64,000 bases of DNA, from the NCBI GenBank assembly GCA_963422645.2, contig CAXXVO010000004.1, positions 384,001 through 448,000 on the forward strand, given 5' to 3'. Each line of letters begins with the position of its first letter. Within the stretch, counting starts at the first letter, position 1. The notes under the pieces were generated by a model that saw nothing but the letters and a program-made list of their open reading frames with translations, searched no databases and was not told where the DNA came from. The DNA is from Alphaproteobacteria bacterium. Lineage in GTDB: Bacteria > Pseudomonadota > Alphaproteobacteria > UBA828. This document shows, in pieces, positions 5,130-63,742 of the stretch. Position numbers and translations under genes: made by a program.

Positions 5130-7017
5130 GTAACTGCCCAGGTTCTTGCTGTGAAAATTCTCTGGGATTCGGCACAACGCTACCCACGCGACGCCCGTGT
5201 GCTCCTCTGGGGTCGCCGGGTTTCACAGCTCACGATGCCCCTCTTGCGGACTGCGACCGGTAAGCTACCCCGATGTGGCCCGAAGTCCGCCCGCGCGACG
5301 GGCACCGATTTTCATTCTATGGGGTGGTCCAGCACGGCGTCGACCATGATCGTTTATGAGAATGGCTCCGCTGTTGGAGAACCCGTGCCAGGTGAGCTTA
5401 CGCGCACTTGACGGTGGCGATGAGCCGATCCGATGGGCTGGTCAGGGCTTCGATGATATTCCAGCCCTGCTTTCTGGCGGTGGTGATGACGCTGCGCAGG
5501 ATGGCGAAGTTCTCGGCCCCCTGCGCGGACCGGAAGCCCCCGGAGATCTTCTGGCGCAGCTTCATCATCCGAAGGTCGCGCTCGGCCTCGTTGTTCGTGA
5601 ACCCGACCTCGAGGTCGATCAGGAACCGGAGCACCGCGCATTTGTGGTCGCGCAGCCTCAAGGCCAGATTGTGACCGATCCTTCGCTTCCGGCGCTTCTT
5701 CCTCTTGCCAGGCGAGAACGGTGGTTGGCTCTCGTGAAAGGCCAGCGCATCGGCGATGATCTCGTCGTATCGGCGCTCGATCAGCGCCACAAGCCTCGCC
5801 GGAACGGCGATATCCTTGTCCAGCGCGATGCGGGCGGCGCGATTGGCTCGGCGCAGGAGCTGCTGCATCCGCCGGGCCCAAGCCTCCCCTTCGATGTCCA
5901 CCAGCGCCTGCAACTCCCGCAGGTGATGGGCGTTGCACAGGCCGTGCTCCACCCCTTCCATCGCGAAGTACGGCTTCCAGTGATCGTGCACGACGATGCC
6001 GGAGACACCCGAGAGCAGGGCGCCGCGCTTGCCGCTGACCCGGTACGCCGCCAGCAGCGGCGTGCAGATCACATGAAGCCACTGCGTCTGACCGCCGATC
6101 CGCAAGCCGGTCTCGTCCATGTGTTTCACCCGCGCCGTGCCCGCCGCCAGGTCCTGTATGTGCAAGGCCGCGTCCCGCAGCCGCTCGGCCGCCCTCTCGC
6201 TCATCGTCGCCAACGTCGCAGCCGTCACCGGCGCGCCGAAGAGCTCGGCCATCACCTGCGACAGCCGATCCTCCGGCAGGAAGTGAGCGTGCTGAAGGTA
6301 GACCGCCACCCCGGCAATGCGCGGGCCGTACTGCACCGGCGCCGACACCCCGTCGGGGAACGCCGCCCGGGTCACCGTCCCGCAATGCCCGCAGCACTTG
6401 GCATGCGCCCGGTGCTCGGTCACCTCCAGGGGGCTCGGCTCGGGCAGATCGAACACCTGGCGGGCGACGGGCGTTCCCGCCCTGGCCGCGTCCGAAAGCG
6501 GCGAACCGCATCCCTTGCAGGAAGCCGGGACGTGATCCTTCACCCGATCCGGGTGATCGGCGCGGCGCAGCGTCTTGCCCTTGTGGCCGGGCTGGCCACC
6601 GGGCTTGCGGCCCGATTTGCCGCGCAGGCTTCGGGTTCGCCGCTTCGAATTCGGCTTCCTCAGCCCATCGCTCGAAGGCGGCTTGCCGCTGTTGCCGCTG
6701 TTGAGGCCGAGACGGCGCTCCAACTCCTCGATGCGCTCGACGAGACGCGCGACTTGCTCTTCCAGCCGCGCGTTCTGCTGCCGAAGCCAGGCATTTTCCT
6801 CCCGAAGCCGGGCGTTCTCCTCCTCCAGGCGGGCGATCTTCTGCGCGGGCGTTTCGGGCGCTGCTCCCGTCGAAGGGCCGCGCGGCGACTCGGGATTGCT
6901 CATGTCGTTGTTGAGTCATTTCCCGAAATTCCCGTCAAGCCCTTTCCACCAACTCCGAACGAGAAACGCCTCAATCCACTGGCCCAAAATGACAAATCAG
7001 ACGACCTGGGCAGTTAC
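5130..7017 (-). mobile_element. IS66-family (single-ORF, ISBst12-like) element, copy 1, 1888 bp
   Basis: TIRs GTAACTGCCCAGGT; 8-bp target duplication GATTTCCG at 5122-5129 and 7018-7025. Confidence 0.95.
5398..6903 (-). CDS. IS66-family transposase (intact)
   Basis: Coiled coil, NSGKPPSSD, GGQPGHKG, Zn-finger, DETG, CNAHHLREL, TNNEAERDLR. Confidence 0.95.
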   Translation of the reverse strand: MSNPESPRGPSTGAAPETPAQKIARLEEENARLREENAWLRQQNARLEEQVARLVERIEELERRLGLNSGNSGKPPSSDGLRKPNSKRRTRSLRGKSGRKPGGQPGHKGKTLRRADHPDRVKDHVPASCKGCGSPLSDAARAGTPVARQVFDLPEPSPLEVTEHRAHAKCCGHCGTVTRAAFPDGVSAPVQYGPRIAGVAVYLQHAHFLPEDRLSQVMAELFGAPVTAATLATMSERAAERLRDAALHIQDLAAGTARVKHMDETGLRIGGQTQWLHVICTPLLAAYRVSGKRGALLSGVSGIVVHDHWKPYFAMEGVEHGLCNAHHLRELQALVDIEGEAWARRMQQLLRRANRAARIALDKDIAVPARLVALIERRYDEIIADALAFHESQPPFSPGKRKKRRKRRIGHNLALRLRDHKCAVLRFLIDLEVGFTNNEAERDLRMMKLRQKISGGFRSAQGAENFAILRSVITTARKQGWNIIEALTSPSDRLIATVKCA

Positions 7018-7322
7018 GATTTCCGACTCTATCAACGAGACCTGCCCCTGGTCGGGGGAGCCGGTCCAAGCCGACTCCCTGACCGAGTTCAACGGCAACG
7101 TCGTCGGCTTCTGCAATCCCGGCTGCCGCGACAAGTTCGACGCCGCGCTCCGCCACTTCGAGACGGCGAAGGCGTCGAGAGGGGCGCCGCGCTCGTCTCG
7201 CTGAGCGCTTGCGGCACCACCCGGCGCCACACTTGCGCAACCGGGCTCCCCGCCGCCGATCAGAGTGGCGGGCCGCGGTCGCGGCCTGTCGCGAGTCCGT
7301 CAATAGCGGCCTCGCTCTAACC

Positions 7323-42210: not shown

Positions 42211-43338
42211 ATGGCGACGCACCACCTCAACGACCGCCGCGTCGACGCGCTCAGGACCCGCAAGTCAGCCTACGACGTGCGCGACCGCGAACTGAAGGGC
42301 TTCGGCGTAAGGGTCATACCCTCGGGCACCAAGCGCTACTTCATACACATCCAGCAGCACCAGGGACGGCGAGTCTGGAAGATCGTCGGCGATGCCGACA
42401 CCATCGGCACAGACGAGGCCCGCGGCCGGGCGAAGACCCAGATGGCCGCGATCCGGGAAGGCAGCGACGCGCACGCCGCAACGCCGCCCGACATCGCCTT
42501 CGAGACGGTCGCCGAAGAAGTCTTCCGGCGCTATGCCCGAAACTGGAAGCCGTCCGCGCTCTACGTGAACCAGGGCTACTACCGCAACCAGATTCTGCCT
42601 TGGTTCGAGGGGCACCCGATTGCCGCCATCACCGTGAGTGACGTTCGGCGCTGGTTCGCGTCCCTTCACGAGACGCCGGCGGCGGCCGACCGCTCGGCCC
42701 CCATCCTCTCGGTCATCATGCGCCAGGCCGAGGTCTACGGCTACCGGCCGGAGGGAACCAATCCGTGTGCGGGCATCAGGCGGTACAGGCGCCGGGGACG
42801 GGAGCGCTTCCTCTCGGCGGCGGAGCTCCGCCGGCTGGGCGAAGTGCTGGCACGCCATGAGGCCGATCAGCCGCAGTTCGTGGCGATCATACGCCTGCTG
42901 CTGCTCACCGGATGCCGCAAGAGCGAGATCGTCACGCTCAAATGGCGCCACTACCGCGAGGGCAAGCTGTTCCTGCCGGACAGCAAGGTGGGGCCGCGCA
43001 CGGTCTGGCTCTCGTCCGCCGCGCGCGCGCTTCTGGACGGCCTGCCCCGCAGCGCGGTCTGGGTCTTCCCCTCGCCGCAGACCCGCAGCTGCTTGAGCGT
43101 GGCGACGCTCGACCGGGCCTGGCGATGCATGAGGGCGGAGGCGTACCTGTGCGACGTCCGCCTTCACGATTGTCGACACACGTACGCCAGCATGGCCCTG
43201 GCGCAGGGTGAGACAGTGCTGACCATCGGCCGGCTGCTCGGGCACCGCAATCCGGCGACCACACTGAAATACACACACATGTCCGATCTTGCGGTGCGCG
43301 AGGCGGCCGACGCCGTCGGCGCCGTCCTTGAGGGTTAA
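42211..43338 (+). CDS. Tyrosine recombinase/integrase with N-terminal arm-binding domain
   Basis: GFGVRV, LLTGCRKSE, RLHDCRHTYAS, LLGH, T.KY. Confidence 0.93.
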   Translation: MATHHLNDRRVDALRTRKSAYDVRDRELKGFGVRVIPSGTKRYFIHIQQHQGRRVWKIVGDADTIGTDEARGRAKTQMAAIREGSDAHAATPPDIAFETVAEEVFRRYARNWKPSALYVNQGYYRNQILPWFEGHPIAAITVSDVRRWFASLHETPAAADRSAPILSVIMRQAEVYGYRPEGTNPCAGIRRYRRRGRERFLSAAELRRLGEVLARHEADQPQFVAIIRLLLLTGCRKSEIVTLKWRHYREGKLFLPDSKVGPRTVWLSSAARALLDGLPRSAVWVFPSPQTRSCLSVATLDRAWRCMRAEAYLCDVRLHDCRHTYASMALAQGETVLTIGRLLGHRNPATTLKYTHMSDLAVREAADAVGAVLEG

Positions 43339-43341
43339 GGC

Positions 43342-44298
43342 ATGACCGCGAAGAGGCGACGCCTGACCGACGCCAACGTGGCAAAGCTGACGCCGGCGGC
43401 CCGCGAGTATACGGTCTGGGACACGCGCCATGCGGGTCTCGGCGTGCGCGTCCGCCCGTCGGGGCACCGCAGCTTCGTCTATTAGCGCAAAGGCAAGAAC
43501 GGAGCACGCAGGATCACGCTCGGTCCTGCGGCGTTGACGGGCGTCGATGAGGCGCGCACCAAGTGTCTCGCCATTGAGACCGGAGAGCGATTCGACCCGG
43601 CAAAGCGCTGTCGGGTCATCACGTTCGGGGATTTCATCTCGGGCCCGGGGCGGGCGTGTATCGACCGATGCAAGCCCTCGACGCAAAAAGCCGTAAGTTG
43701 GACCCTGAGAGCGCGCCTGCTTCCGGCCTTCGGCCCGATGCCTTTGGACCGGATCACCCATGCCAGTGTGACACGCTGGTTCGACGAATACAGCCAGACC
43801 GCGCCCGGCGGGGCCAATCACGCCTTGAGCGTGCTTCTCCGAATACTCAACCACGCAGTCCTTTGCGGTCATCTCGACACGAACCCAGCCCGCGGCATCA
43901 AGCCCAACCCGCGTCCGAAGCTCACCCGCTTTCTGTCGCGCGAGGAAGTCCACCGACTTCGCCGCGCGCTGGACCGCCACGCCGACGCGCCGCAGGCTGA
44001 CATCATCCGCCTGCTTCTGCTGACCGGCTGCCGGAGGGACGAGATCCTGACCCTGCGCTGGCAGGACTTGGACGGCAACATGCTCAATCTGGCCGACGCC
44101 AAGGCCGGACCGAGAAGAGTGTTCCTGAGCGCGCAGGCCCGCGCCGTCCTCGAGCGCCAGCCGAGAACCGGAAGCGCCTGGATCTTTCCCTCGCCGCTCG
44201 ATCCGGGGAGGCCGCGTTCGCCTCACCTGCCGCTCTGGTACTCGGTACGCAGGGAAGCCGGGATCGAGGACGTGCGGATCCACGACCTCAGGCACAGT
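43342..44298 (+). pseudogene. Second tandem tyrosine integrase, inactivated
   Basis: Paralogous N-terminus; in-frame TAG at 43483-43485; homology ends right after IHDLRHS, so catalytic His/Tyr are missing. Confidence 0.85.
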
Positions 44299-44586
44299 TC
44301 TGCGGGCTACCAGAAATATCCAGCGCCAATCAGCGTTCCAAATGACAATAACCCACTGATAAAACGAAATTTCTTTCATTCAGTGCAGGCTGTCCGAATT
44401 CACTCCCAAGATTTGCGGAAGCAATCCGTAACCGGAGTTGGCTGTCTCGCCGTCACCTCCTGCCAGCCATGCCGGTAAGCGTTCCGGCGTAACCGTTCGG
44501 GTTCCGTAATCGTTCGTTCGGGCCGTGGAGACGCTATCTGCTTGATGCCTAGCTTTGGCGTGCCCTGGATGGCGTTGGCTGGGATT

Positions 44587-44762
44587 CTAGCGGTTTAGGG
44601 TGCGCTGCCAATCCCTTCTGAGGGGCCGGAGCCAGACGTCCTTGCAGGGTTTGTTTTGGAGCTTGCCGCGGTCGTAGCGTCCGCCCGACCCGTATCCAGC
44701 CTGATGCCCGGTAGACGGCTCCGGTGTAGCGCGGGGTCTCGACAAAGGTCTCCACGAACGTC
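44587..44762 (-). pseudogene. 3' part of a DUF4338 (DruA-like) gene
   Basis: TFVETFVETPRYTGAVYRASGW, then after a frameshift GRYDR...KDVWLRPLRRDWQRTLNR*. Confidence 0.8.
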
Positions 44763-45207
44763 ACAGACTACTATCTTGCAGGCTTCCGAGGCTCCTGAGC
44801 CCGTTCGCATTCGACGCTACAAGCATCCTTTCGACGGTGAGGCGATCGAGATTCTCGATCGGCGCAAAGGAGGTTACGGGGGCCGGACTCTGAAGGTTCG
44901 GATGCCGGACGGCAGCTGTTGTTGGATACCAGCGGCATGGACGAGCCTTGGAGCCCGTCCCGAGGATGCACCACGCCTGATCGGAGAGTTGTCTGATTTC
45001 CTCACCCTCCTTAATCTTCTGAATGACCTTGATGAGAGGGAACTCAGGCGCGATGGATGCGGAGCAGGAGTTGGCGCTGATCGCGCTGATGGAGTGGGAG
45101 GAGCGCCGGGACCGGTGGCTGGCGTTTCCGGCTCCGGACCGGGATCGCGTCGTGCAGGGTCTGGCCGATCTGATGGTTCGGATTGCGGATCGGGAGGCGG
45201 CCGATGA
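44761..45207 (+). CDS. Start-less body of a small accessory protein (DUF5372 / Y4bD-like)
   Basis: HPFDG...DGS..WIPAAWT motif; no convincing start inside the left end; stop overlaps the recombinase ATG (ATGA 45204-45207). Confidence 0.7.
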   Translation, partial: SQTTILQASEAPEPVRIRRYKHPFDGEAIEILDRRKGGYGGRTLKVRMPDGSCCWIPAAWTSLGARPEDAPRLIGELSDFLTLLNLLNDLDERELRRDGCGAGVGADRADGVGGAPGPVAGVSGSGPGSRRAGSGRSDGSDCGSGGGR

Positions 45208-45244
45208 CGGTCGATCCGTCGAAGATCACCCAGCGTCATCTTGA
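45053..45244 (+). CDS. Small overlapping hypothetical protein (63 aa)
   Basis: MDAEQELALI...W.AFP..DR..VV..LA.L; identical in copy 2 (57806-57997). Confidence 0.45.
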   Translation: MDAEQELALIALMEWEERRDRWLAFPAPDRDRVVQGLADLMVRIADREAADDGRSVEDHPASS

Positions 45245-47386
45245 GCGTCTTGCAGTTGTCTACGTTCGCCAGTCGACACCCTTGCAAGTGAACGCGCACC
45301 AGGAATCGCAGCTGCGCCAATACGCGCTTGGCGAGCGTGCCCGGGAGATTGGCTGGCCGGCCGAGCGGATACGGACGATCGACGCCGATCTTGGCGAGAG
45401 CGCAAGCGAGAAGGCGCGCGGCGAGCGTGGCGGCTTTCGGGAGATGTGCGACCTGATCGCCCGGGACCATGTCGGGGGCATCTTCGGGATTGAGGTTTCG
45501 CGGCTCGCCAGGAACACGATGGAATGGTTTCAGCTTCTCGATCTATGTCGCAGGCACGACACGGTTCTGGTTGAGGACTGCCACATCTACTGCCCGAGCC
45601 GGGACGACGACTCCCTTGTCCTGGGGATCAAGGGAACCGTGAGCGCCGCTGAGCTGTCTCTTATTCGCGCCCGGATGGAGGGCGGAAAGCGGAACAAGGC
45701 GCTTCGTGGCGAGTTGTACTCGCGCGTTCCGATCGGATTTGTGCGGGATGGCTCGACTTTGCGGAAGGATCCGGATGCCCGGGTTCAGGCGGCGATTGCA
45801 ACGGTCTTTGCGCGTTTTCGGCAAGCCGGTTCGGCCCGCCAGGCGACGATGCTGCTGCGTGAGGCGGGCGAGGATGTTCCCTCTCGCCGGCACCCGGGGG
45901 CAGCATTGGAATGGGGCCCGGCGCGCTATGAACGGGTGTACCGCATCCTCACCAACCCGGCGATGGGCGGCGCCTATGCCTACGGCTTCAAACGCGGCGT
46001 TGGTCACGGTGCGCCGCTGCGGCCGGTCCAGGAGCGCTGGGATATTCTTCAGCCGGAGAAGCATGAGGGATATGTCAGTTGGGCAGAATGGCTTGAAGTA
46101 CAGGAGCAGCTGGCCCGCAACCACATGGCTCCGGACGGAGCCCGCGGCGCGGCGCGGGAAGGGTCGGCTCTGCTCCAGGGTCTCGCGGTCTGCGGCGGCT
46201 GCGGATTGCCGATGACCGTCTACTACAGCAAGACGGGCTGGGGGTATGAGTGCCGCAAGCGCGATGCTGCGCGCCGGCGCGGCGGTTGTTGGTCGACAGG
46301 CGGCAAGCGCGTTGATGCGGAAGTTGCCCGTCTGTTTCTCGATGCGGTCACGCCGGCGGGGGTGGAGGCGGCCCGGCAGGCGGCTTGTGATGTTGCTGAA
46401 CGCGGCCTGCGCGCGTTGCGCCGTTGGGAGCTGGATCTTGAGCACTGCCGGTACGAGGCGCGGCTTGCCGAGCGGCGCTACAAGCAGGTCGATCCCGACA
46501 ACCGTCTGATTGCGGCAACGCTGGAGCGCGAGTGGGAGAAGGCGCTTCGCGCCGAGAAGGCTGCACAGGAAGCGCTTGAGGCGGCACGGGCGCGTCAGCC
46601 CGCGGCCCCTGCCCCGGCGCGGTTTTCGAGGGTCTCGGCGCGCGCCTGTCGCAGGTCTGGGGGGCGTCGTCGACGACCATGCGCGAGCGCAAGCGCCTGC
46701 TCGCCTGCCTCCTCGACGAGGTGACGATCGAGCTTGCGCGACAGGAGCGTGAGATCATGGCAACATTGCGCTGGCGTGGCGGGCAGATCGACGAGATCAC
46801 TTTGCCGATGCTCGCGGGCTCTCCGACACCCCGGCGCGATGAGCGCAGCACGGTCGAGCTCGTGCGCAAGCTGTCATGCTTTTACAACGACCGGGAGACC
46901 GCGAAGGTTCTCACCCGCCAGGGACGGCGCACAGCACGGGGTCTGGATTTCACGGCCGAGCTTGTTGGCAGCCTGCGTCGCCGCCATGGCATTGCGCCCT
47001 ACCAGCCCGACGGGGACGAGCCGGTGCTCATGGGCGTTGCCGATGTGGCGAAGGAGATCGGAGTCTCGGATGACACCATCTATCGCTGGATCCGCGAGGG
47101 GCTGGTTCCGGTTGCCCAGCCCGATATCGAAGGTGCTCCTCTTCGGATCCGGATGACCCCGACCTTGCGCGAGCGCTTTCGTGAGGCGCCTCCGGAGGGG
47201 TTTGTTCCCCTCGCTGTGGCAATGGATCGTCTGGGTGTCACGCGGCAGACGGTCTGGGAACGGATCAAGGCGGGCAGGCTGGACAGCTGCCATGTGACCC
47301 GCGGCAAGACGCGCGGACTGTATGTGCGTTTGCCGGTCGAGGACGAACTGCCGCTGCTGCGCGGGCTCAACGGTGATGGGGGGTGA
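45204..47386 (+). pseudogene. Large serine recombinase with C-terminal HTH domains, copy 1, 2-bp frameshift near 46620
   Basis: YVRQST catalytic Ser, EVSRLARN, Zn ribbon CGGCG, coiled coil, two HTH; extra GC versus copy 2 (real or sequencing error). Confidence 0.9.
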
Positions 47387-47575
47387 CCATGCCCGGACCG
47401 TCAGGCAAAACGCCCGATGCAGATCCGCACCTCCAACGTGCGATACTGGAAAATCACGTCCGGCACGATGTAAAGGTCGCCGCGGCGGCAACAACGGAAT
47501 CCAAACCGCCTTTTCTATCAATGCGGTAGAAACGCCCGCCCACCTGCACAACGGAGAAGCATTATGAAGCCTTCA

Positions 47576-48005
47576 TCTCGATGAGCACCGGGGTGATGTT
47601 GTAGCGCTCGGTCCAGTCCCCGGGCAGGCGGCAGCGGACGATGGCGAGGATGTGTGAGCCGAGGTTGGGGATCTCGATCCAGGGCAGGATCAGGAACCGC
47701 GGGTTGTCGACCACCAGGGGGAGGTTCTTCTCGCGCTTCTCGGGCGTCCATCCAATGAACCTGTAGCGCGGTGCAAGCCTCCAGGCGGCGGTGGAGAAGC
47801 CGAGCATGGTCAGCGGCCAGCCGTTTCGGTCGTAGACGGCGTAGCGCATCTGGGCGCCGACCAGGGTCTTGAAGCCGAGATAGTGGTAGCGGGCGACGAA
47901 CTCGTTCCACAGCCTGCCGTCGCGGGTCTCGCGCACGACGGGGCGCATCTCCAGCGGGCGGACCTCGGCGAGGGTGGTCGGGGCCGGGAACAACGGCGGT
48001 CTCGT
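47576..48005 (-). pseudogene. Middle part of DUF4338 gene (allele A), 5'-truncated
   Basis: LWNEFVARYHYLG, RFLILPW, NLGSHIL, ERYNITPVLIE ending at the element boundary. Confidence 0.85.
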
Positions 48006-48140
48006 CTTCTCAGAGAGCGCCAAGGCTGAGGTGGCCCGGGAAAATCGGACAGGTCGCTAAGTGTCTGGCCTGGAATGAATTGATTGATTTCAGTGTGTTG
48101 TGATTCACTGTTTGTGTCCAAGCAATCAGCGAGGCACGAC

Positions 48141-49378: not shown

Positions 49379-52284
49379 CTAGCGTTCCAAGGCAATGTGA
49401 AATCGCCTCGCGCGGTCCCTGAACGCTTCCTCTCCACCTTCCAGGATGTCGCACACGACCTTGCGGATTTCCGCCTCGTCCAGGCCGCCGCTCCTGTACG
49501 TGATGGCCGGAAGACCCTCCGCCGACTGAGGGCCGACATGTGCGACAATAATCTGGTCCGCATCGGTGTTGACCACAAGGTTCGCGTTATGCGTAACAAT
49601 GATGACCTGCCGCTTCTTCTTGGCCTCCTCGAACAACGGCACCAGCTCGTCGAAAATGGACTTCGGATCGAGATTCTCTTCGGGTTGGTCGATAATCAAC
49701 GGTCGGTCATCGGCATCGTCGAGCGCAAGGTAGAGAAGCACCAGAACTATTCCCCGCGTGCCAGGTGACAGTTTTTGTATCTCGATTCCATCGTACTTGA
49801 TGCCATACTTGAGGGAAATGTGGCTTGTACTGTACAGCCATTGCGCGAAACGCCTCGACCAGGGTCGATATTTCAACCGGTCTGTACGCGGGTACGGGGC
49901 CTTTTCGAGAAGCGCCTCCTGATGCTTCTCCTGAAACGCATTCATGGCCTTGGAAACCGCAGCAGAATCACCCTCCCGCCAAGCGTCCCTCAGCATCCGG
50001 TTCGCTTCCTTCTCAAGTGAGCCTATGCCCTTGAACGGGCCTCCCCTGAGGTCGAACAGCTCATCTTCACCCTGCTTTGCCCACGTACCCACGTCGGCCA
50101 CCCTGGAGACAGAGAACGAGAGCTTCCCCAGCGTACCGCCGGCTTCCCGCAGGCGCCGGATCAGCGGACCGTACAACTCGTTGAGCACGCGCTCTTCCGC
50201 AAGCAGGGCATCGAAGACGCGAACGTAACCGTCCGCCCGCTCCGCAACGAGGCTCCTCGCCCTGTCATGCGCCCTCTTGCAATCTGCGAGCCTTTCTTTC
50301 AGTCCGGCAAGCTCATTTCCTTCTTCGGCGATCCGTTTGGAGACGGCAGCAACCTTGCGCGCGCTTTCCCTGTCCGCTGCGACCAGTTTTTCCATCCTCT
50401 CGATCTCTGCTTCGAGGACGCCGAGCGGGGTCCTCGCAAGATTGGCACCTTTGGGAAGGAACGTCCCGCTGGCATCCACTGCAACAGAAGGCTTCTCCCC
50501 TTTCCATGCCTTCGTGCTCTTCTCCACTTCCTCGGACTTCGCCGCTACGACCCCATCGACATCACCCACGTATTCGAGAAGAAAACGCCCCCACTCGCCC
50601 TCATCGAGAGAAAGATTCCTATAGTTCTCCCTCATGCCCCGCAGCATCTCGGGTGCCCGATTCTGTCTCAGGTCCCTGATTTCGTTCCTGACCCCGACGA
50701 TAGATGCCCTTCGATTGCCGAGCTTCCTTAGGTGGCCGCGTACCCGTTCGGCAGCGGCGATCAGTTCCCGGAGCCGCTCGCCCGTCTTCTTCCCATCTTT
50801 GGGCAACAAGGCCGTGCGATCCTTCTCGTAGCGCGCAATCAGCTTCTCTTTCGCGGCGATCTTCGCCTCCAGCGGTTTGACCTCACGCGTCTTCTCCATC
50901 TCGATGCCGATCTGGTCAGAAATGTTCGCCAGCGCCACCTCTTCCCGGACCCGCGCATCGCGATGGCCTCCCGCCCGCAGTTCAAGGAGCTCGCCGAAGT
51001 CGACCGCGCCGTCGCGTTCGAGTGACGGGTGCGCTTCGAAGATAACCCGCTCGATTTCCGCGATTAGTGTGGGCATGCCCTCTATGGAGCAGAGATCCTC
51101 CACGAATTGCTGCGACAGATACCTAGCACGGGGATAGGCGTCCGCTGAACTATCCACGGGTGCGTCGAGCGGCTGCGCTTGCGAAAGCTCGCCACTCGAC
51201 CATTTCACAACAACACTTGATTCCGACAGATGTTCCCTCGCCCGCGCAAGGAAGGACGGATTCTCCTCCGACTCCATGTACGAGCTGCAACCAGCCGCGA
51301 TCATGTCCACCAGCGCAGTCTTGCCCGATCCCCGCCCACCAATGACCGCCGTCAAGCCCGCATTCAGCTCCACAACGGGTGTCATGACCCACGACGCGTT
51401 TTCGACACGCACCTCGTCGATGATCTGGGAACCCGCCGACCATGACGGCGGGGCCGAACCGACGTACGCACGTTCCGGCACGCGACACGCGTGGCGGAAC
51501 GTATCGAAGGACGCTCGCCCCTTTATCCAGCAATACCGGTCTTCCGCGGGCTTGGCGACGCGCTCCAGACCATGCGCATCGCTGCCCCAAAGACACGGCT
51601 TCGGGCCGCGATATCTCTCCTGAAGTTCGGCCACACTCGCCGCCCCGCTCCCAAGCCAGAAATCCCTCTGCCTCAAACTCGAGGCAAAGATGGCGTGCGC
51701 GGCCTTTTCGATTTCTTCTCGCAGTGTCGTATCGGCCGCATCCCTCACGCCCGAAGTGCCATCCGCGCTTCCGGCGACCGCGATAATGATGTTTTCCTGG
51801 GCCCAGTCGATGCTGCGGTACATGTCGAGCAGATTGTCAAGCGATACCTTGAACTGCGTGACGCCGTGTTTCAGCGCAGCTTCTTCGCTGATATCGCCAC
51901 CGCGCGCGCGCCTCCCCAGCCGCGCCAGCTCGGAGGGTGTACATGCGAACTTGTCGTCAAAAGCGGAGAACCAGAGCCGACCCAGAAATCGGTTCAATTC
52001 GTCCACGTGATTCGGGTCCTCCGGACTGACAAGGAGGTGAATGTTGACAAAATTTCCCTTTACGGTCCCAGTGTTGAGTCGCAGCTCAATATTGGGAAAG
52101 AGCAGGTCGCATTCTTTCAGCCGACCCTTTGCTTTCTCCTCACACATGCGCTCGTAGGATCTCGTGATACAATAATCCGTAATCCCGATCGCCTGCAGCA
52201 CAGGCGACGCCGCTTCGACGGCATCGAGGTACAATTTCCAGCCATTTTCCTTGGGGAAGTTGTCCCCCAACACCGTCCCTGGCG
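49379..52284 (-). pseudogene. PHP-domain plus SMC/ABC-type ATPase (TrlF/Ppl-like), N-terminus removed by IS21
   Basis: IGITDY, NIELR, NIH, GSDAH; GGRGSGKT, LSPG, IIDQPEENLD, VTHNAN; begins abruptly at TPGT against the IS end; codon style differs from core genes. Confidence 0.82.
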
Positions 52285-57761: not shown

Positions 57762-58110
57762 CCTTAATCTTCTGAATGACCTTGATGAGAGGGAACTCAG
57801 GCGCGATGGATGCGGAGCAGGAGTTGGCGCTGATCGCGCTGATGGAGTGGGAGGAGCGCCGGGACCGGTGGCTGGCGTTTCCGGCTCCGGACCGGGATCG
57901 CGTCGTGCAGGGTCTGGCCGATCTGATGGTTCGGATTGCGGATCGGGAGGCGGCCGATGACGGTCGATCCGTCGAAGATCACCCAGCGTCATCTTGAGCG
58001 TCTTGCAGTTGTCGTAACTGCCCAGGTCGTCTGATTTGTCATTTTGGGCCAGTGGATTGAGGCGTTTCTCGTTCGGAGTTGGTGGAAAGGGCTTGACGGG
58101 AATTTCGGGA

Positions 58111-59161
58111 ACCGCTTATGCACATGGCTCCGGTCGCGAGAGTTTGCCACCAGATGTTGAGGTTGAGGTTAGGGCGGGAGAACGGGTAGAATGTTGCCTA
58201 TACGTTCCTGCCGACGGAGCCACCACATGAAACAGGTCGCCGACAGCCTCCTCGCCTTCCAGCACATGTTCCCGGACGATGACGCCTGCGCCGCCTGGCT
58301 GATCGAAATGCGCTGGCCGGACGGCTTCGTCTGTCCCGCGTGCGGCCATGAAAAGGGATGGGCGCTGCGCAGAAAAGCACACACCTTCGAGTGCGCCGGC
58401 TGCCGCCGGCAGACCTCGGTGACGGCCGGGACGATCCTGCACGCCAGCAAGCTGCCGCTCACCGTCTGGTTCTGGGCCGCCTACCTGATGGCGACCCACT
58501 CCAACGGCATCTCTGCCCTGCAGCTCCAGAAACAGCTCGGTATCGGCTCTTACCGCAGCGCTTGGCTGCTCGCCCACAAGCTGCGCGCCAGCATGGTCGA
58601 CCCCGAGCGCAACCCGTTGTCGGGCCTGGTGGAAATCGACGAGGCCAGCCTTCCATTCCGGACCAAAGACGATCCTCCCACCGGAGGGCAAGGACGCAGC
58701 CACGACGGCAAGATGCTCATCGTCGGCGCCATCGAACTGGGGGATGGAACCATCCCGGGCCGCCTGCGGCTGGCCGAAATCTCCTCCTACGGCGCCGCCG
58801 ACCTCGGACACTTCGTCGAAACCGCCGCCGATCCCGACGCCATCGCGAAAACCGACGGCTGGTCCGGCTACGCTGCGGTCCCCGCCGATCGCCACAATGT
58901 CCATGTCGTCGGGAAGACCGCCGCTCACCTCGTCCTGCCGTGGATCCACCAAGTCTTCTCCAACCTCAAAGGATGGGCGCGAGGCGTCTACCACGGGCTG
59001 CGCCGCAAGCATCTGCAGGCCTATCTCGATGAGTTCGCCTTTCGCTTCAACCGCCGCAAAACCCGCCACGCTGCTTTCCGCTCGCTCTTCCGCATCGCCA
59101 CCAATGCAAAACCCCTTACCTACAGCATGTTGATCGAACCGGAGCCATGTGCATAAGCGGT
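58111..59161 (+). mobile_element. IS1595-family element, 1051 bp, inside the IS66 leader
   Basis: 24-bp TIR ACCGCTTATGCACATGGCTCCGGT; 8-bp duplication TTTCGGGA at 58103-58110 and 59162-59169. Confidence 0.93.
58227..59156 (+). CDS. IS1595-family transposase
   Basis: RWPDGFVCPACG Zn ribbon, VEIDE, TDGWSGY, YLDEFAFRFNRR. Confidence 0.93.
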   Translation: MKQVADSLLAFQHMFPDDDACAAWLIEMRWPDGFVCPACGHEKGWALRRKAHTFECAGCRRQTSVTAGTILHASKLPLTVWFWAAYLMATHSNGISALQLQKQLGIGSYRSAWLLAHKLRASMVDPERNPLSGLVEIDEASLPFRTKDDPPTGGQGRSHDGKMLIVGAIELGDGTIPGRLRLAEISSYGAADLGHFVETAADPDAIAKTDGWSGYAAVPADRHNVHVVGKTAAHLVLPWIHQVFSNLKGWARGVYHGLRRKHLQAYLDEFAFRFNRRKTRHAAFRSLFRIATNAKPLTYSMLIEPEPCA

Positions 59162-59186
59162 TTTCGGGAAATGACTCAACAACGAC

Positions 59187-60693
59187 ATGAGCAATCCCGA
59201 GTCGCCGCGCGGCCCTTCGACGGGAGCAGCGCCCGAAACGCCCGCGCAGAAGATCGCCCGCCTGGAGGAGGAGAACGCCCGGCTTCGGGAGGAAAATGCC
59301 TGGCTTCGGCAGCAGAACGCGCGGCTGGAAGAGCAAGTCGCGCGTCTCGTCGAGCGCATCGAGGAGTTGGAGCGCCGTCTCGGCCTCAACAGCGGCAACA
59401 GCGGCAAGCCGCCTTCGAGCGATGGGCTGAGGAAGCCGAATTCGAAGCGGCGAACCCGAAGCCTGCGCGGCAAATCGGGCCGCAAGCCCGGTGGCCAGCC
59501 CGGCCACAAGGGCAAGACGCTGCGCCGCGCCGATCACCCGGATCGGGTGAAGGATCACGTCCCGGCTTCCTGCAAGGGATGCGGTTCGCCGCTTTCGGAC
59601 GCGGCCAGGGCGGGAACGCCCGTCGCCCGCCAGGTGTTCGATCTGCCCGAGCCGAGCCCCCTGGAGGTGACCGAGCACCGGGCGCATGCCAAGTGCTGCG
59701 GGCATTGCGGGACGGTGACCCGGGCGGCGTTCCCCGACGGGGTGTCGGCGCCGGTGCAGTACGGCCCGCGCATTGCCGGGGTGGCGGTCTACCTTCAGCA
59801 CGCTCACTTCCTGCCGGAGGATCGGCTGTCGCAGGTGATGGCCGAGCTCTTCGGCGCGCCGGTGACGGCTGCGACGTTGGCGACGATGAGCGAGAGGGCG
59901 GCCGAGCGGCTTGCGGGACGCGGCCTTGCACATACAGGACCTGGCGGCGGGCACGGCGCGGGTGAAACACATGGACGAGACCGGCTTGCGGATCGGCGGT
60001 CAGACGCAGTGGCTTCATGTGATCTGCACGCCGCTGCTGGCGGCGTACCGGGTCAGCGGCAAGCGCGGCGCCCTGCTCTCGGGTGTCTCCGGCATCGTCG
60101 TGCACGATCACTGGAAGCCGTACTTCGCGATGGAAGGGGTGGAGCACGGCCTGTGCAACGCCCATCACCTGCGGGAGTTGCAGGCGCTGGTGGACATCGA
60201 AGGGGAGGCTTGGGCCCGGCGGATGCAGCAGCTCCTGCGCCGAGCCAATCGCGCCGCCCGCATCGCGCTGGACAAGGATATCGCCGTTCCGGCGAGGCTT
60301 GTGGCGCTGATCGAGCGCCGATACGACGAGATCATCGCCGATGCGCTGGCCTTTCACGAGAGCCAACCACCGTTCTCGCCTGGCAAGAGGAAGAAGCGCC
60401 GGAAGCGAAGGATCGGTCACAATCTGGCCTTGAGGCTGCGCGACCACAAATGCGCGGTGCTCCGGTTCCTGATCGACCTCGAGGTCGGGTTCACGAACAA
60501 CGAGGCCGAGCGCGACCTTCGGATGATGAAGCTGCGCCAGAAGATCTCCGGGGGCTTCCGGTCCGCGCAGGGGGCCGAGAACTTCGCCATCCTGCGCAGC
60601 GTCATCACCACCGCCAGAAAGCAGGGCTGGAATATCATCGAAGCCCTGACCAGCCCATCGGATCGGCTCATCGCCACCGTCAAGTGCGCGTAA
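59187..60693 (+). pseudogene. IS66 transposase copy 2, +1 frameshift at ~59911
   Basis: Extra T relative to copy 1 (CGGCTTGCGG vs CGGCTGCGG). Confidence 0.88.
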
Positions 60694-63282
60694 GCTCACC
60701 TGGCACGGGTTCTCCAACAGCGGAGCCATTCTCATAAACGATCATGGTCGACGCCGTGCTGGACCACCCCATAGAATGAAAATCGGTGCCCGTCGCGCGG
60801 GCGGACTTCGGGCCACATCGGGGTAGCTTACCGGTCGCAGTCCGCAAGAGGGGCATCGTGAGCTGTGAAACCCGGCGACCACAGAGGAGCACACGGGCGT
60901 CGCGTGGGTAGCGTTGTGCCGAATCCCAGAGAATTTTCACAGCAAGAACCTGGGCAGTTACCAGTTGTCTACGTTCGCCAGTCGACACCCTTGCAAGTGA
61001 ACGCGCACCAGGAATCGCAGCTGCGCCAATACGCGCTTGGCGAGCGTGCCCGGGAGATTGGCTGGCCGGCCGAGCGGATACGGACGATCGACGCCGATCT
61101 TGGCGAGAGCGCAAGCGAGAAGGCGCGCGGCGAGCGTGGCGGCTTTCGGGAGATGTGCGACCTGATCGCCCGGGACCATGTCGGGGGCATCTTCGGGATT
61201 GAGGTTTCGCGGCTCGCCAGGAACACGATGGAATGGTTTCAGCTTCTCGATCTATGTCGCAGGCACGACACGGTTCTGGTTGAGGACTGCCACATCTACT
61301 GCCCGAGCCGGGACGACGACTCCCTTGTCCTGGGGATCAAGGGAACCGTGAGCGCCGCTGAGCTGTCTTTTATTCGCGCCCGGATGGAGGGCGGAAAGCG
61401 GAACAAGGCGCTTCGTGGCGAGTTGTACTCGCGCGTTCCGATCGGATTTGTGCGGGATGGCTCGACTTTGCGGAAGGATCCGGATGCCCGGGTTCAGGCG
61501 GCGATTGCAACGGTCTTTGCGCGTTTTCGGCAAGCCGGTTCGGCCCGCCAGGCGACGATGCTGCTGCGTGAGGCGGGCGAGGATGTTCCCTCTCGCCGGC
61601 ACCCGGGGGCAGCATTGGAATGGGGCCCGGCGCGCTATGAACGGGTGTACCGCATCCTCACCAACCCGGCGATGGGCGGCGCCTATGCCTACGGCTTCAA
61701 ACGCGGCGTTGGTCACGGTGCGCCGCTGCGGCCGGTCCAGGAGCGCTGGGATATTCTTCAGCCGGAGAAGCATGAGGGATATGTCAGTTGGGCAGAATGG
61801 CTTGAAGTACAGGAGCAGCTGGCCCGCAACCACATGGCTCCGGACGGAGCCCGCGGCGCGGCGCGGGAAGGGTCGGCTCTGCTCCAGGGTCTCGCGGTCT
61901 GCGGCGGCTGCGGATTGCCGATGACCGTCTACTACAGCAAGACGGGCTGGGGGTATGAGTGCCGCAAGCGCGATGCTGCGCGCCGGCGCGGCGGTTGTTG
62001 GTCGACAGGCGGCAAGCGCGTTGATGCGGAAGTTGCCCGTCTGTTTCTCGATGCGGTCACGCCGGCGGGGGTGGAGGCGGCCCGGCAGGCGGCTTGTGAT
62101 GTTGCTGAACGCGGCCTGCGCGCGTTGCGCCGTTGGGAGCTGGATCTTGAGCACTGCCGGTACGAGGCGCGGCTTGCCGAGCGGCGCTACAAGCAGGTCG
62201 ATCCCGACAACCGTCTGATTGCGGCAACGCTGGAGCGCGAGTGGGAGAAGGCGCTTCGCGCCGAGAAGGCTGCACAGGAAGCGCTTGAGGCGGCACGGGC
62301 GCGTCAGCCCGCGGCCCCTGCCCCGGCGGTTTTCGAGGGTCTCGGCGCGCGCCTGTCGCAGGTCTGGGGGGCGTCGTCGACGACCATGCGCGAGCGCAAG
62401 CGCCTGCTCGCCTGCCTCCTCGACGAGGTGACGATCGAGCTTGCGCGACAGGAGCGTGAGATCATGGCAACATTGCGCTGGCGTGGCGGGCAGATCGACG
62501 AGATCACTTTGCCGATGCTCGCGGGCTCTCCGACACCCCGGCGCGATGAGCGCAGCACGGTCGAGCTCGTGCGCAAGCTGTCATGCTTTTACAACGACCG
62601 GGAGACCGCGAAGGTTCTCACCCGCCAGGGACGGCGCACAGCACGGGGTCTGGATTTCACGGCCGAGCTTGTTGGCAGCCTGCGTCGCCGCCATGGCATT
62701 GCGCCCTACCAGCCCGACGGGGACGAGCCGGTGCTCATGGGCGTTGCCGATGTGGCGAAGGAGATCGGAGTCTCGGATGACACCATCTATCGCTGGATCC
62801 GCGAGGGGCTGGTTCCGGTTGCCCAGCCCGATATCGAAGGTGCTCCTCTTCGGATCCGGATGACCCCGACCTTGCGCGAGCGCTTTCGTGAGGCGCCTCC
62901 GGAGGGGTTTGTTCCCCTCGCTGTGGCAATGGATCGTCTGGGTGTCACGCGGCAGACGGTCTGGGAACGGATCAAGGCGGGCAGGCTGGACAGCTGCCAT
63001 GTGACCCGCGGCAAGACGCGCGGACTGTATGTGCGTTTGCCGGTCGAGGACGAACTGCCGCTGCTGCGCGGGCTCAACGGTGATGGGGGGTGACCATGCC
63101 CGGACCGTCAGGCAAAACGCCCGATGCAGATCCGCACCTCCAACGTGCGATACTGGAAAATCACGTCCGGCACGATGTAAAGGTCGCCGCGGCGGCAACA
63201 ACGGAATCCAAACCGCCTTTTCTATCAATGCGGTAGAAACGCCCGCCCACCTGCACAACGGAGAAGCATTATGAAGCCTTCA

Positions 63283-63742
63283 TCTCGATGAGCACCGGGG
63301 TGATGTTGTAGCGCTCGGTCCAGTCGTCGGGCAGGCGGCGGCGGACGAGGGCGAGGATGTGCGAGCCCAGGTTGGGGATGGTGATCCAGGGCAGGATCAG
63401 GAACCTCGGATTGTCGACGACGAGCGGGAGGTTCTTCTCGCGCGATCGTGGCGTCCAGCCGATGAAGTTGTCGCGCGGAGCGAGCTTCCATGCGGCGGTT
63501 GAGAAGCCGAGCATGGCGATGGGCCAGCCGTTTCGGTCGTGGACGGCGTAGAGCATCTGGGCGCCGACGAGGGTCTTGTAACCGAGATAGTGGTAACGGG
63601 CGACGAACTCGTTCCACAACCTGCCCTCGCGGGTCTCGCGGACGACGGGGCGCAGGTCGATCGGGCGAACCTCGTCGAGGGTTGTCGGGGCCGGAAGCAG
63701 CGGCGGCTCGGTGTCCGGCCCGAAGACGACTGGCTTTGGCCG
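63283..63742 (-). pseudogene. DUF4338 gene, allele B, interrupted at the same codon
   Basis: KPVVFGPDTEPP...WNEFVARYHYLG...ERYNITPVLIE; many substitutions versus allele A. Confidence 0.85.

What the first reader, a model, noticed from the sequence alone, without database searches (positions are those of the whole stretch)
44761..47577. Gene split across the two ends of a serine-recombinase element and completed only on the excised circle
Seen: the element's first ORF (44761-45207, HPFDG...WIPAAWT) has no convincing start inside the left end. At the far right end lie GGAG (47553-47556) and, 7 nt later, ATG AAG CCT TCA TC (47564-47577). In the integrated state this ATG gives only MKPSSR*. Joining right to left end through the shared TC gives ATG AAG CCT TCA TCA CAG ACT ACT ATC..., exactly in frame, encoding a 152-aa protein MKPSSQTTILQASEAPEPVRIRRYKHPF... 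Its stop overlaps the recombinase start (ATGA, 45204-45207). The same right end is conserved in copy 2. Inference: a recombination-state switch in which excision creates an accessory protein (directionality factor, integration helper or regulator) and couples it translationally to the recombinase. Junction-formed promoters are well known in IS circles; I am not aware of a junction-formed ORF being described for this element class.
Basis: partly seen in the sequence, partly recalled or inferred. Interest (0 to 1): 0.92.

Follow-up and report, generated by a model that had tools for sequence, protein, structure and literature searches.

The report
Gene completed only on excised circle
A small jumping DNA element keeps the ribosome-binding site and start codon of one of its genes at the opposite end from the rest of that gene, so the gene is whole only once the element has cut itself out as a circle, and eleven distant relatives share this layout.

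Summary
The element is 2,827 bp (44753-47579), bounded by a TCTC overlap. The junction ORF therefore has 156 codons, not 152, and is still in frame.

The element sits in a DruA-like gene. There are about 10 near-identical copies in this genome.

The small DUF5372-like ORF has no convincing start in the integrated state. GGAG and an ATG sit 11 nt before the crossover at the far end.

I mapped both ends in 11 diverged lineages, using copies in different flanks or by rebuilding the target gene. In 12 of 12 loci the ATG nearest the crossover is in frame with the ORF. The ATG-to-domain distance varies from 24 to 32 codons. GTG/TTG codons at the same ends show no frame bias (3 in, 8 out).

The ORF stays open across an overlapping small gene (orf2). 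Its stop overlaps the recombinase start in 11 of 14 loci.

A complex prediction places the ORF's C-terminal helix on the recombinase where directionality factors bind (0.70; best control 0.00).

No circle junction or RNA could be examined. The effect on directionality is inferred.

Gene splitting by integration is known (SSV integrases, phage BPs repressor), so this is a new variant.

The parts
44549..44748 (-). 3' part of the interrupted target gene (DruA-like, C-terminal fragment)
   Evidence: The minus-strand ORF 44549-44764 continues the protein of 47562-48023 once the element is removed. Empty paralogs read straight through.
44749..44752 (+). attL overlap TCTC. The probable crossover dinucleotide is TC at 44751-44752.
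   Evidence: 4-nt overlap between the left and right matches to empty sites. The contig joint 44748->47576 has 4 ambiguous letters. The dyad centre falls here.
44753..44802 (+). Left end: the P' arm of attP plus the leader codons of the split ORF. No ATG or GTG; TTG at 44776.
   Evidence: All copies are identical from here inward. 11 of 24 positions are symmetric with the right arm. The leader is modelled as disordered.
44803..45051 (+). DUF5372-like domain of the split ORF: a small beta-barrel followed by a helix
   Evidence: Pfam PF17342, E 0.0022, below cut-off. 68 HMMER relatives. Model pLDDT 82. Differences between relatives fall at codon position 3.
45052..45207 (+). Tail of the split ORF. 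It is read in another frame over orf2 and ends in TGA inside ATGA at the recombinase start.
   Evidence: Not conserved as protein, but kept open. Stop-start overlap in 11 of 14 loci.
45053..45244 (+). orf2: small overlapping gene (63 codons from ATG 45053; an earlier ATG lies at 45023). It ends 40 nt inside the recombinase gene.
   Evidence: GC3 of 0.8-0.9 in this frame. Differences fall at its third codon positions in 4 pairs of relatives. NCBI annotates the equivalent gene in 6 plasmid records. No Pfam match.
45204..47386 (+). Large serine recombinase gene. In this copy it is broken by a 2-bp GC insertion at 46617-46618; intact copies encode 726 aa.
   Evidence: Pfam Resolvase, Recombinase, Zn_ribbon_recom and a C-terminal HTH_17. 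5 of 7 full copies lack the GC. The intact ORF is in L001. The GC is absent from contigs of 4 runs.
47387..47552 (+). Non-coding stretch between the recombinase stop and the right-end translation signals
   Evidence: Partly conserved in two 92-95% related remnants. No sigma-70 consensus found.
47553..47579 (+). Right end: GGAG (47553-47556), ATG (47564-47566), four more codons, and the attR overlap TCTC (47576-47579). This is the P arm of attP.
   Evidence: Present 11 times in the genome.
47580..48023 (-). 5' part of the interrupted target gene (DruA-like, N-terminal fragment)
   Evidence: Pfam DruA PF14236, E 7.5e-29.
57762..58013 (+). Copy 2, first piece. It matches 45009-45260, and the left end is missing.
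60962..63286 (+). Copy 2, second piece, running to its right end. It is separated from the first piece by a roughly 2.95-kb insertion at 58012-60962.

Best explanation
The feature is a 2,827-bp cargo-free mobile element moved by a large serine recombinase. It is integrated at a conserved motif of a DruA-like gene. It carries three genes: a DUF5372-like ORF, a small overlapping gene (orf2) and the recombinase.

The DUF5372-like ORF is split by the recombination site. Its Shine-Dalgarno sequence, ATG and first five codons lie at the right end. The other 151 codons begin at the left end. The complete 156-codon ORF therefore exists only when the two ends are joined, that is on attP of the excised circle or in a head-to-tail tandem.

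Ribosomes that start at this ATG would read three things in turn: a disordered leader, the beta-barrel-plus-helix domain, and a tail that crosses orf2 in another frame. They would terminate on the recombinase start codon. The circle would then produce this protein together with recombinase by translational coupling.

The protein is predicted to bind the recombinase where known directionality factors bind, at the second DNA-binding domain and the base of the coiled coil. My best guess is that it resets directionality after excision.

In my preferred version, orf2 is the excision factor made by the integrated copy. The circle-only protein competes with it, and translation of its tail suppresses orf2, so the circle is driven to integrate.

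Shown here: the ends, the split, its conservation, the open tail and the stop-start overlap. Inferred: the existence of circles, use of the ATG, binding, and the direction of the effect.
For: (1) Ends.
- Copies are identical from 44745 to 47579 apart from one 2-bp indel.
- There are three or more different flanks.
- Empty paralogous sites show a 4-nt overlap.
- Contigs from 3 of 4 runs join 44748 to 47576, skipping 2,827 nt.

(2) The junction ORF is in frame and 156 codons long.

(3) Comparative test.
- I mapped ends without reference to the frame. The methods were copies in different flanks and reconstruction of the target gene: group II intron reverse transcriptase, IS66 tnpB and IS21 istB.
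- The attL and attR dinucleotides are identical in 12 of 12 loci.
- The ATG at 14 or 11 nt before the core is in frame in 12 of 12 loci, representing 11 lineages.
- All ATGs in the last 40 nt: 14 in frame, 4 out. GTG/TTG: 3 in, 8 out.
- The cores differ between lineages (TC, AA, GC, TA, AC, TT, CG, CC, GT).
- The ATG-to-domain distance is 24 to 32 codons.
- Two close relatives differ by a 3-nt indel in the leader.
- So the frame is not fixed by the geometry of the site alone.

(4) 9 of 15 loci have no in-frame ATG, GTG or TTG between the left end and the domain. NCBI annotation of 6 plasmid copies calls orf2 and the recombinase but not this ORF.

(5) A purine-rich stretch lies 4-8 nt before the ATG in most lineages, matching 4 or 5 of 5 positions.

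(6) The ORF's stop overlaps the recombinase start in 11 of 14 loci. Under synonymous resampling of orf2, the chance that the tail stays open is 0.20 here, about 0.015 in the Pseudomonas type, 0.04 in F1, and about 0.1 in two other lineages.

(7) Predicted complex with the recombinase.
- Score 0.70; best of 3 controls 0.00.
- The mark was reached by 58 of 80 solved complexes and 2 of 110 mismatched pairs. I used my own alignments, so these counts hold only roughly.
- The runs agree in at least 76% of contacts, and the partner's pLDDT is at least 64.
- The interface is the partner's residues 74-98 against recombinase residues 331-334, 381-394 and 468-528.
- In SPbeta integrase the directionality factor binds the second DNA-binding domain and the inter-hinge segments, with hinges near residues 379/380, 401/402, 467/468 and 479/480 (PMC11722253, passages read).
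Against: - No circle junction was seen. It is absent from the assembly (0 matches), and no back-joint appeared in contigs of 4 runs. Contigs drop rare forms, so this is not evidence of absence.
- No RNA run was available, so transcription across the junction is untested.
- No sigma-70-like promoter was found in 44600-47700.
- The ATG sits inside the recombinase-binding arm at a nearly fixed distance from the core (8 or 11 nt). The mirror-image arm has a similar word. Part of its conservation may therefore be for DNA binding rather than translation.
- Some lineages have an internal start just before the domain: ATG in L045, L059 and L021, GTG in L011/L020, and TTG 44776 here. HMMER relatives P0002, P0004, P0005 and P0013 are called from that position. 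A shorter protein could therefore be made while integrated.
- One lineage (L012/L014) is ambiguous. It is in frame only if a 2-nt core lies between two conserved blocks, as in its relative F2, and its attL and attR dinucleotides differ.
- In L046 and L047 the tail stops before the recombinase start.
- If the protein is a classical excision factor, making it only after excision is hard to rationalise.
Confidence: 0.7

Rival explanations
1. The in-frame ATG is a by-product of the recombination site. The right-arm word containing ATG, and the fixed phase, exist because the recombinase reads them as DNA. The DUF5372-like protein would then be made in the integrated state, from an internal or non-canonical start or from ribosomes reading in from the flank. 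The junction would have no role in translation.
For: - The ATG lies 8 or 11 nt from the core in every lineage.
- The arms are partly symmetric, 11 of 24 positions.
- The last 30 nt of the right end are invariant in two 92-95% related remnants, while the DNA upstream varies.
- Internal starts exist in 5 of 15 loci, and in L021.
- The ORF is open into the flank in this copy (TTG 44656) and in L001.
Against: - The phase between the core and the domain is kept in 11 lineages even though the leader length varies from 24 to 32 codons. That has no DNA-binding explanation.
- 9 of 15 loci have no in-frame canonical start inside the element.
- The flanks differ in gene and in orientation, so they cannot supply a conserved start.
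- In L009 an in-frame stop lies in the flank just outside the left end.
- Within a fixed-length block the ATG moves by 3 nt between lineages (L041 type against L047 type).
- GTG/TTG codons in the same arm show no frame bias.
Confidence: 0.15
2. There are two isoforms. A short form, started inside the element at low level, is the excision factor of the integrated copy. The long form, started at the junction ATG, carries a disordered N-terminal extension that inactivates or destabilises it. The circle would then make recombinase without active excision factor. This follows the logic of the two repressor forms of phage BPs.
For: - The leader is modelled as disordered (residues 1-18).
- Some lineages have both a junction ATG and an internal start.
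- The predicted interface on the recombinase is the one used by directionality factors.
- A precedent exists for forms that depend on the integration state (PMC4557955, abstract read).
Against: - 9 of 15 loci lack any canonical internal start.
- No degradation signal was identified.
- The leader sequence is poorly conserved outside the part that doubles as the recombination site.
Confidence: 0.1
3. The DUF5372-like ORF is a decaying remnant with no present function, and its openness is a side effect of high G+C content.
For: - The Pfam score is below the cut-off.
- No start codon is present in the integrated state.
- GC3 in this ORF's frame is modest.
- The word-indexed protein search found nothing.
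Against: - Differences between relatives concentrate at third codon positions across the domain in 4 pairs.
- HMMER finds 68 relatives.
- The fold model is confident, pLDDT 82.
- The ORF is also open in elements with 58-62% G+C, where resampling gives 0.01-0.04.
- Ten near-identical copies in this genome point to recent activity.
Confidence: 0.03

Closest known systems
Tn4451/Tn4453 and their large resolvase TnpX (Lyras and Rood 2000; I saw only the title, in the reference list of PMC13023037)
   Same: A large serine recombinase excises the element as a circle, and joining the ends creates an expression signal for the element's own recombination functions.
   Different: There the junction forms a promoter. 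Here it joins a ribosome-binding site and start codon to the body of an ORF. Those transposons carry cargo, whereas this element is 2.8 kb with none. Circles are shown for Tn4451 but not here.
SSV-type integrases of archaeal viruses and plasmids (PMC7253208; I saw the start of the abstract in the search listing)
   Same: The recombination site lies inside an ORF of the element. Integration splits the gene between the two ends, and only the circular form has it whole.
   Different: There the split gene is the tyrosine integrase itself, cut in the middle, in archaea. Here an accessory gene loses only its translation signals and five codons, the recombinase is a serine enzyme, and the hosts are bacteria.
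Integration-dependent immunity of mycobacteriophage BPs (PMC4557955; abstract read)
   Same: attP lies within a regulatory gene, so the integrated and free states make different products. The recombination state is read out as a protein difference.
   Different: There the 3' end is removed, giving a shorter, stable repressor in the prophage, and the integrase is a tyrosine enzyme. Here the 5' end is removed, which is an on/off switch rather than a change of form.
Recombination directionality factors of large serine integrases: SPbeta SprB (PMC11722253; abstract and passages read) and phiC31 gp3 (PMC5814800; title seen in the listing)
   Same: A small protein is encoded beside the integrase. 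A helix is predicted to pack against the second DNA-binding domain and the segments at the base of the coiled coil.
   Different: No sequence or fold similarity to a known factor was found. Known factors can be expressed from the integrated element. This one apparently cannot, which fits poorly with a classical excision factor.
Circle-specific promoters of integrative elements, such as Pcirc of ICEclc (PMC13023037; discussion passage read), and junction promoters of IS circles (IS911 and others; recalled, not checked here)
   Same: Expression of recombination genes depends on the two ends being joined.
   Different: Those act through transcription. Here the split is in the translation signals. 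No junction promoter could be recognised.

Membership tests
Large serine recombinase (integrase/transposase) elements | Recombinase with an N-terminal resolvase catalytic domain, a recombinase domain and a zinc ribbon domain | tested here: met
   Pfam Resolvase 2.3e-17, Recombinase 9.4e-10, Zn_ribbon_recom 2.9e-5 (24.8 bits against a 25.3-bit cut-off, so marginal). The intact form has 726 aa.
Large serine recombinase (integrase/transposase) elements | Simple insertion with an identical 2-nt crossover at both junctions and no target duplication beyond it | tested here: met
   TCTC overlap at both ends and at empty sites. attL and attR dinucleotides are identical in 12 of 12 related loci.
Large serine recombinase (integrase/transposase) elements | Excision to a circle carrying attP | tested here: inconclusive
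   The junction is absent from the assembly and from contigs of 4 runs. Only contigs were available. Empty-site joints exist, but they may come from paralogs.
Pfam DUF5372 (PF17342) | Score at or above the curated gathering threshold (25 bits) | tested here: not met
   18.4 bits, E 0.0022, covering profile positions 6-76 of 78. I therefore call it DUF5372-like. HMMER finds 68 relatives, 8 of them at E <= 1e-10.
Recombination directionality factor | Binds the cognate integrase at the second DNA-binding domain and coiled-coil base | tested here: inconclusive
   Prediction only. Score 0.70; best of 3 controls 0.00. The mark was reached by 58 of 80 solved complexes and 2 of 110 mismatched pairs. 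At least 76% of contacts are shared between runs, and the partner's pLDDT is at least 64.
Recombination directionality factor | Stimulates attL x attR recombination and inhibits attP x attB | not testable with these tools
   Needs recombination assays.
Elements whose gene spans attP (SSV-type integrases, BPs repressor) | The crossover lies inside an ORF, so integration separates its parts to the two ends | tested here: met
   The crossover lies after codon 5 of the 156-codon ORF. The same holds in 11 lineages.
Insertion sequence in the ISfinder sense | Short element encoding only functions for its own mobility, in multiple copies with defined ends | tested here: met
   2,827 bp with three genes and no cargo. 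11 right ends and 10 left ends in the genome. Whether any named IS family covers it was not checked, because no IS database was available.

The most novel reading that the evidence does not exclude
A widespread family of minimal serine-recombinase elements may carry a built-in switch that reads its own recombination state through translation. In the integrated copy only orf2 and the recombinase can be made, which would favour excision. On the circle the rejoined start codon sends ribosomes through a protein that occupies the directionality-factor site on the recombinase. Those ribosomes then run over orf2 in another frame, silencing it, and onto the recombinase start. The circle would thus make recombinase plus an anti-excision factor and be driven to integrate. 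This would be a new way of controlling directionality in large serine integrases, and a compact switch that could be engineered.
Probability: 0.3. Interest if true: 0.88.

Novelty: new variant of a known kind. Interest (0 to 1): 0.78.

Why it matters
- Large serine integrases are major genome-engineering tools, and control of their direction by a partner protein is an active question. A natural system in which the partner gene is physically switched by the recombination event itself would give a testable, self-contained logic for one-way transposition. It would also provide a compact design for state-reporting genetic circuits.
- The split explains why this ORF goes unannotated: NCBI annotation of six plasmid copies omits it. 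Gene callers will systematically miss or mis-start genes that span attP.
- The family is common. Recombinase relatives occur in 456 plasmid records.
- Its members insert into conserved motifs of other mobile elements. That pattern is of interest for how mobile DNA finds safe landing sites.

Tried and rejected
Searches and data that gave nothing usable
- The word-indexed protein search with the 101-aa ORF found nothing.
The third scan returned only 3 distant metagenome loci, which I did not analyse.
- The genome-contig scan gave two 87-88% relatives (L003, L004) that lack left ends.
- The order-level search found one relative (L027), which has no right end.
- Reads: no RNA holder was listed. 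Only Logan contigs were laid, and no back-joint (circle junction) appeared. Two raw-read runs were Hi-C libraries of another organism label; I did not lay them because Hi-C creates chimeric joins. None of this bears on whether circles exist.
- The promoter scan found no sigma-70 consensus. By eye, the best junction-spanning pair matches only 7 of 12 positions, so I do not propose it.
- The Foldseek search of the PDB gave no match at E <= 0.001. The best rows were chromo, Tudor and SH3 barrels.

Readings I first held and then dropped
- I first read lineages d (L011/L020) and e (L012/L014) as out of frame.
- For d this was my error in placing the ends. The region shared by the two copies ends and begins with AC, and with that core it is in frame.
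- Lineage e remains ambiguous. I left it out of the 12-locus count.
- I considered predicting ends from dyad symmetry. True scores (10-11 of 20) are no better than the expected random maximum, so I dropped the idea.

Loci left out of the frame count
- L012/L014: ambiguous core.
- L003, L004, L027, L042: one end missing or a fragment.
- L061, L062, L067, L068: recombinase truncated.
- L056, L072: ends not mapped.
- L015, L054, L057 and their copies: no DUF5372-like gene.
- L008, L016-L018, L022, L040: cut by contig ends or partial.
- L023-L025: distant.
- L043, L044, L053, L011, L010, L055, L064, L073, L079, L071: close relatives of counted loci. Those I examined are also in frame.

Limits of two analyses
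- my automatic orf2 boundaries were wrong for L047, L076 and L046, so I do not use their values.
- the script took the wrong ATG for L012.

Tools and literature
- I did not open any supplements. The attachment-site tables of the recombinase survey PMC10083194 may list elements of this family, and I could not see them.
- Searches behind the statement that this arrangement is not described for this element class: and a term search inside PMC10083194.

Full report
**What is at the locus.**
- The + strand between 44.7 and 47.6 kb holds three genes.
- The first is a long ORF in frame 1 with a weak DUF5372 match (E 0.0022, 18.4 bits, below the 25-bit cut-off).
- The second is a small ORF in frame 2 that I call orf2.
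- The third is a large serine recombinase with Resolvase, Recombinase and zinc-ribbon domains, plus a C-terminal extension with an excisionase-type helix-turn-helix.
- On the minus strand, the sequence on both sides belongs to one DruA-like gene (PF14236, E 7.5e-29) that the element interrupts.

**Ends of the element.**
- BLAST against the whole assembly finds about ten copies.
- Seven full copies are identical from 44745 to 47579 except for a 2-bp GC indel at 46617-46618.
- The copies sit at the same position of at least three diverged paralogs of the target gene.
- Empty paralogous sites match the left flank up to 44752 and the right flank from 47576, sharing 4 nt, TCTC.
- Public contigs of three of four runs contain the joint 44748->47576, skipping 2,827 nt with four ambiguous letters.
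- The element is therefore 44753-47579.
- The two arms around the overlap are partly symmetric, 11 of 24 positions, centred on the second TC. This is as expected for an attP of this enzyme class.
- The window's copy has the 2-bp insertion that breaks the recombinase gene. Five of seven full copies lack it and encode 726 aa. Contigs of all four runs also lack it.
- Copy 2 in the window lacks its left end and is interrupted by another insertion.

**The observation.**
- Inside the left end the ORF has no ATG or GTG. The only candidate start is TTG 44776, with no purine-rich stretch before it.
- At the right end, GGAG is followed 7 nt later by ATG 47564. In the integrated state this ATG opens a 6-codon ORF.
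- With the corrected junction the ATG is still in frame with the left-end ORF, giving 156 codons that end in the TGA of ATGA at the recombinase start.

**Which frames are real.**
- Third-position G+C shows that from about 45030 to 45240 the compositionally coding frame is that of orf2, not the long ORF.
- In four pairs of related elements, differences fall at the long ORF's third codon positions across the domain. Across the tail they fall at its first positions, which are orf2's third positions.
- So the domain and orf2 are under purifying selection, while the tail is not conserved as protein.
- The tail is nevertheless kept open. I resampled orf2 with synonymous codons and asked how often the other frame stays free of stops. 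The result was 0.20 here, 0.011-0.017 in the Pseudomonas/Mycetohabitans type, 0.04 in a Novosphingobium type, and 0.075-0.10 in three further loci.
- The long ORF's stop overlaps the recombinase ATG, as ATGA or TGATG, in 11 of 14 loci. In L046 and L047 it stops earlier, and in L011 two codons later.
- I read this as selection for ribosomes to travel from the domain to the recombinase start, rather than for the tail peptide itself.

**The comparative test.**
- The recombinase has relatives of 34-44% identity in 12 of 401 genomes sampled from the same class and in 456 plasmid records.
- I fetched loci from both sources and mapped the ends without using the reading frame.
- One method compared copies lying in different flanks: F1, F2, lineage d, L069/L010 and L045/L053.
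- The other rebuilt the interrupted target gene:
  - the group II intron reverse transcriptase motif, for the Pseudomonas, Mycetohabitans, Mesorhizobium, Rhizobium and Bradyrhizobium elements;
  - IS66 tnpB, for L066 and L009;
  - the Walker A motif of IS21 istB, for L021.
- In 12 of 12 loci, representing 11 lineages, the dinucleotides at attL and attR are identical. In the same 12 loci the ATG nearest the core, 14 or 11 nt before it, is in frame with the DUF5372-like ORF.
- Over the last 40 nt of the right ends, ATG codons are 14 in frame and 4 out. GTG/TTG codons are 3 in and 8 out, about as chance would give.
- The cores differ between lineages, as do the targets and their orientation.
- The distance from the ATG to the conserved His-Pro of the domain ranges from 24 to 32 codons. 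Two close relatives differ by a 3-nt indel in the leader.
- Between two lineages the ATG shifts by 3 nt within a block of fixed length.
- A frame kept through such length changes is what a translated leader predicts. A DNA-binding constraint alone does not predict it.
- Nine of 15 loci have no in-frame ATG, GTG or TTG between the left end and the domain.
- In L009 the flank carries an in-frame stop just outside the element.
- NCBI annotation of six plasmid copies lists orf2 and the recombinase but not this ORF.
- One lineage (L012/L014) stays ambiguous and was not counted.

**What the protein looks like.**
- HMMER finds 68 relatives. Gene callers start them at varying places: some just before the domain, others far upstream in what must be flank.
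- The model, at pLDDT 82, has a disordered first 18 residues, a small beta-barrel at residues 19-61 and a helix at 81-100. Nothing in the PDB matches beyond generic SH3, Tudor and chromo barrels.
- A complex prediction with the intact recombinase passed its controls:
  - Score 0.70; best of 3 controls 0.00.
  - The mark was reached by 58 of 80 solved complexes and 2 of 110 mismatched pairs.
  - I used my own alignments, so these counts hold only roughly.
  - The runs agree in at least 76% of contacts, and the partner's pLDDT is at least 64.
- The contacts are between the partner's residues 74-98 and recombinase residues 331-334, 381-394 and 468-528. These are the zinc-ribbon domain and the segments entering and leaving the coiled coil.
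- In the SPbeta integrase structures the directionality factor binds that domain and the inter-hinge segments, and its C-terminal helix is essential (PMC11722253, passages read).
- Because integrase-factor complexes have been solved, the pass may partly reflect that likeness. It supports binding but does not show it.

**How it most likely works.**
- Shown: the ORF's translation signals and its body lie at opposite ends. This is conserved and under selection. The ORF leads ribosomes to the recombinase start.
- Inferred: after excision, transcripts crossing attP allow initiation at ATG 47564. The circle then makes the DUF5372-like protein and, by termination-reinitiation, recombinase.
- The integrated copy can make only orf2 and recombinase. 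The end of orf2 overlaps the start of the recombinase gene, and orf2 is a small helical protein, the size of known excision factors.
- The model I favour, at about 0.3: orf2 is the excision factor, and the circle-only protein occupies the same site on the recombinase. Translation of its tail across the orf2 start also lowers orf2 synthesis. Together these flip the system from excision to integration.
- The alternative is that the circle-only protein is itself a classical excision factor. That fits the predicted interface, but it leaves unexplained how an integrated copy would ever excise.

**What is missing.**
- No circle junction was seen, and none could have been with the data served. The runs were available only as contigs or as Hi-C reads, and no RNA run was listed.
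- No promoter was recognised.

**Comparison with what is known.**
- Joining the ends of a circle to create an expression signal is known. Examples are a promoter for TnpX of Tn4451 (title seen in a reference list), Pcirc of ICEclc (passage), and IS-circle promoters (recalled, not checked here).
- Genes that span attP are also known. SSV-type integrases are cut in two by integration (abstract start in the listing). The BPs repressor loses its C-terminal tag on integration (abstract).
- What I did not find in print is a ribosome-binding site and start codon separated from an accessory gene in serine-recombinase elements, with translational coupling to the recombinase.
- I therefore rate it a new variant of a known kind.

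Noticed in passing
window 46617-46618: A 2-bp GC insertion breaks the recombinase gene in this copy and in one other (contig C8). 5 of 7 full copies lack it, as do contigs of 4 public runs. This copy probably depends on recombinase supplied by the others, unless the insertion is an assembly error.
   Followed up: partly
window 57762-58013, 58012-60962, 60962-63286; also 5129-7019: Copy 2 of the element lacks its first 256 nt. It is split by a roughly 2.95-kb insertion, which has a 100% identical inverted copy at 5129-7019.
   Followed up: partly
loci L041, L043-L047, L066, L009, L014, L021 and the window: Every mapped member of this element family sits in a conserved motif of a gene of another mobile or defence-type element. 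The targets are group II intron reverse transcriptase, IS66 tnpB (two different sites), the Walker A motif of IS21 istB, and the DruA-like gene here.
   Followed up: partly
window 46679-47383 (recombinase C-terminal part): The recombinase has a roughly 200-aa C-terminal extension with an HTH_17 (excisionase-type) match, E 4.8e-11, and a second weaker helix-turn-helix. This extension is shared by the 40-44% identical relatives but not by the shorter ones.
   Followed up: no
G000 contigs C6:342628-345485 and C8:597522-600123 (right flanks): In two copies the right flank starts like one paralog family for about 52 nt and then continues like another. This suggests recombination or gene conversion between copies in different paralogs.
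   Followed up: no
loci L015, L054, L057, L062: A sister group of related recombinases has a helix-turn-helix gene resembling a transposase OrfA upstream, in place of the DUF5372-like ORF. It also has a purine-rich stretch and an ATG, or an overlapping TGATG, right after the recombinase stop. I did not test whether that gene is split in the same way.
   Followed up: no
locus L046 (4208-4230): In the Bradyrhizobium element the right-end ATG overlaps the recombinase stop codon. On a circle, the recombinase gene, the split ORF and the recombinase gene again would then be linked by overlapping stops and starts.
   Followed up: no
window 42211-43338 and 43534-44478 (+), 49379-52273 (-): Two tyrosine-integrase-like ORFs lie just upstream of the element. 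A 964-aa ORF with ATPase-like motifs lies downstream. I saw these only in the ORF list.
   Followed up: no
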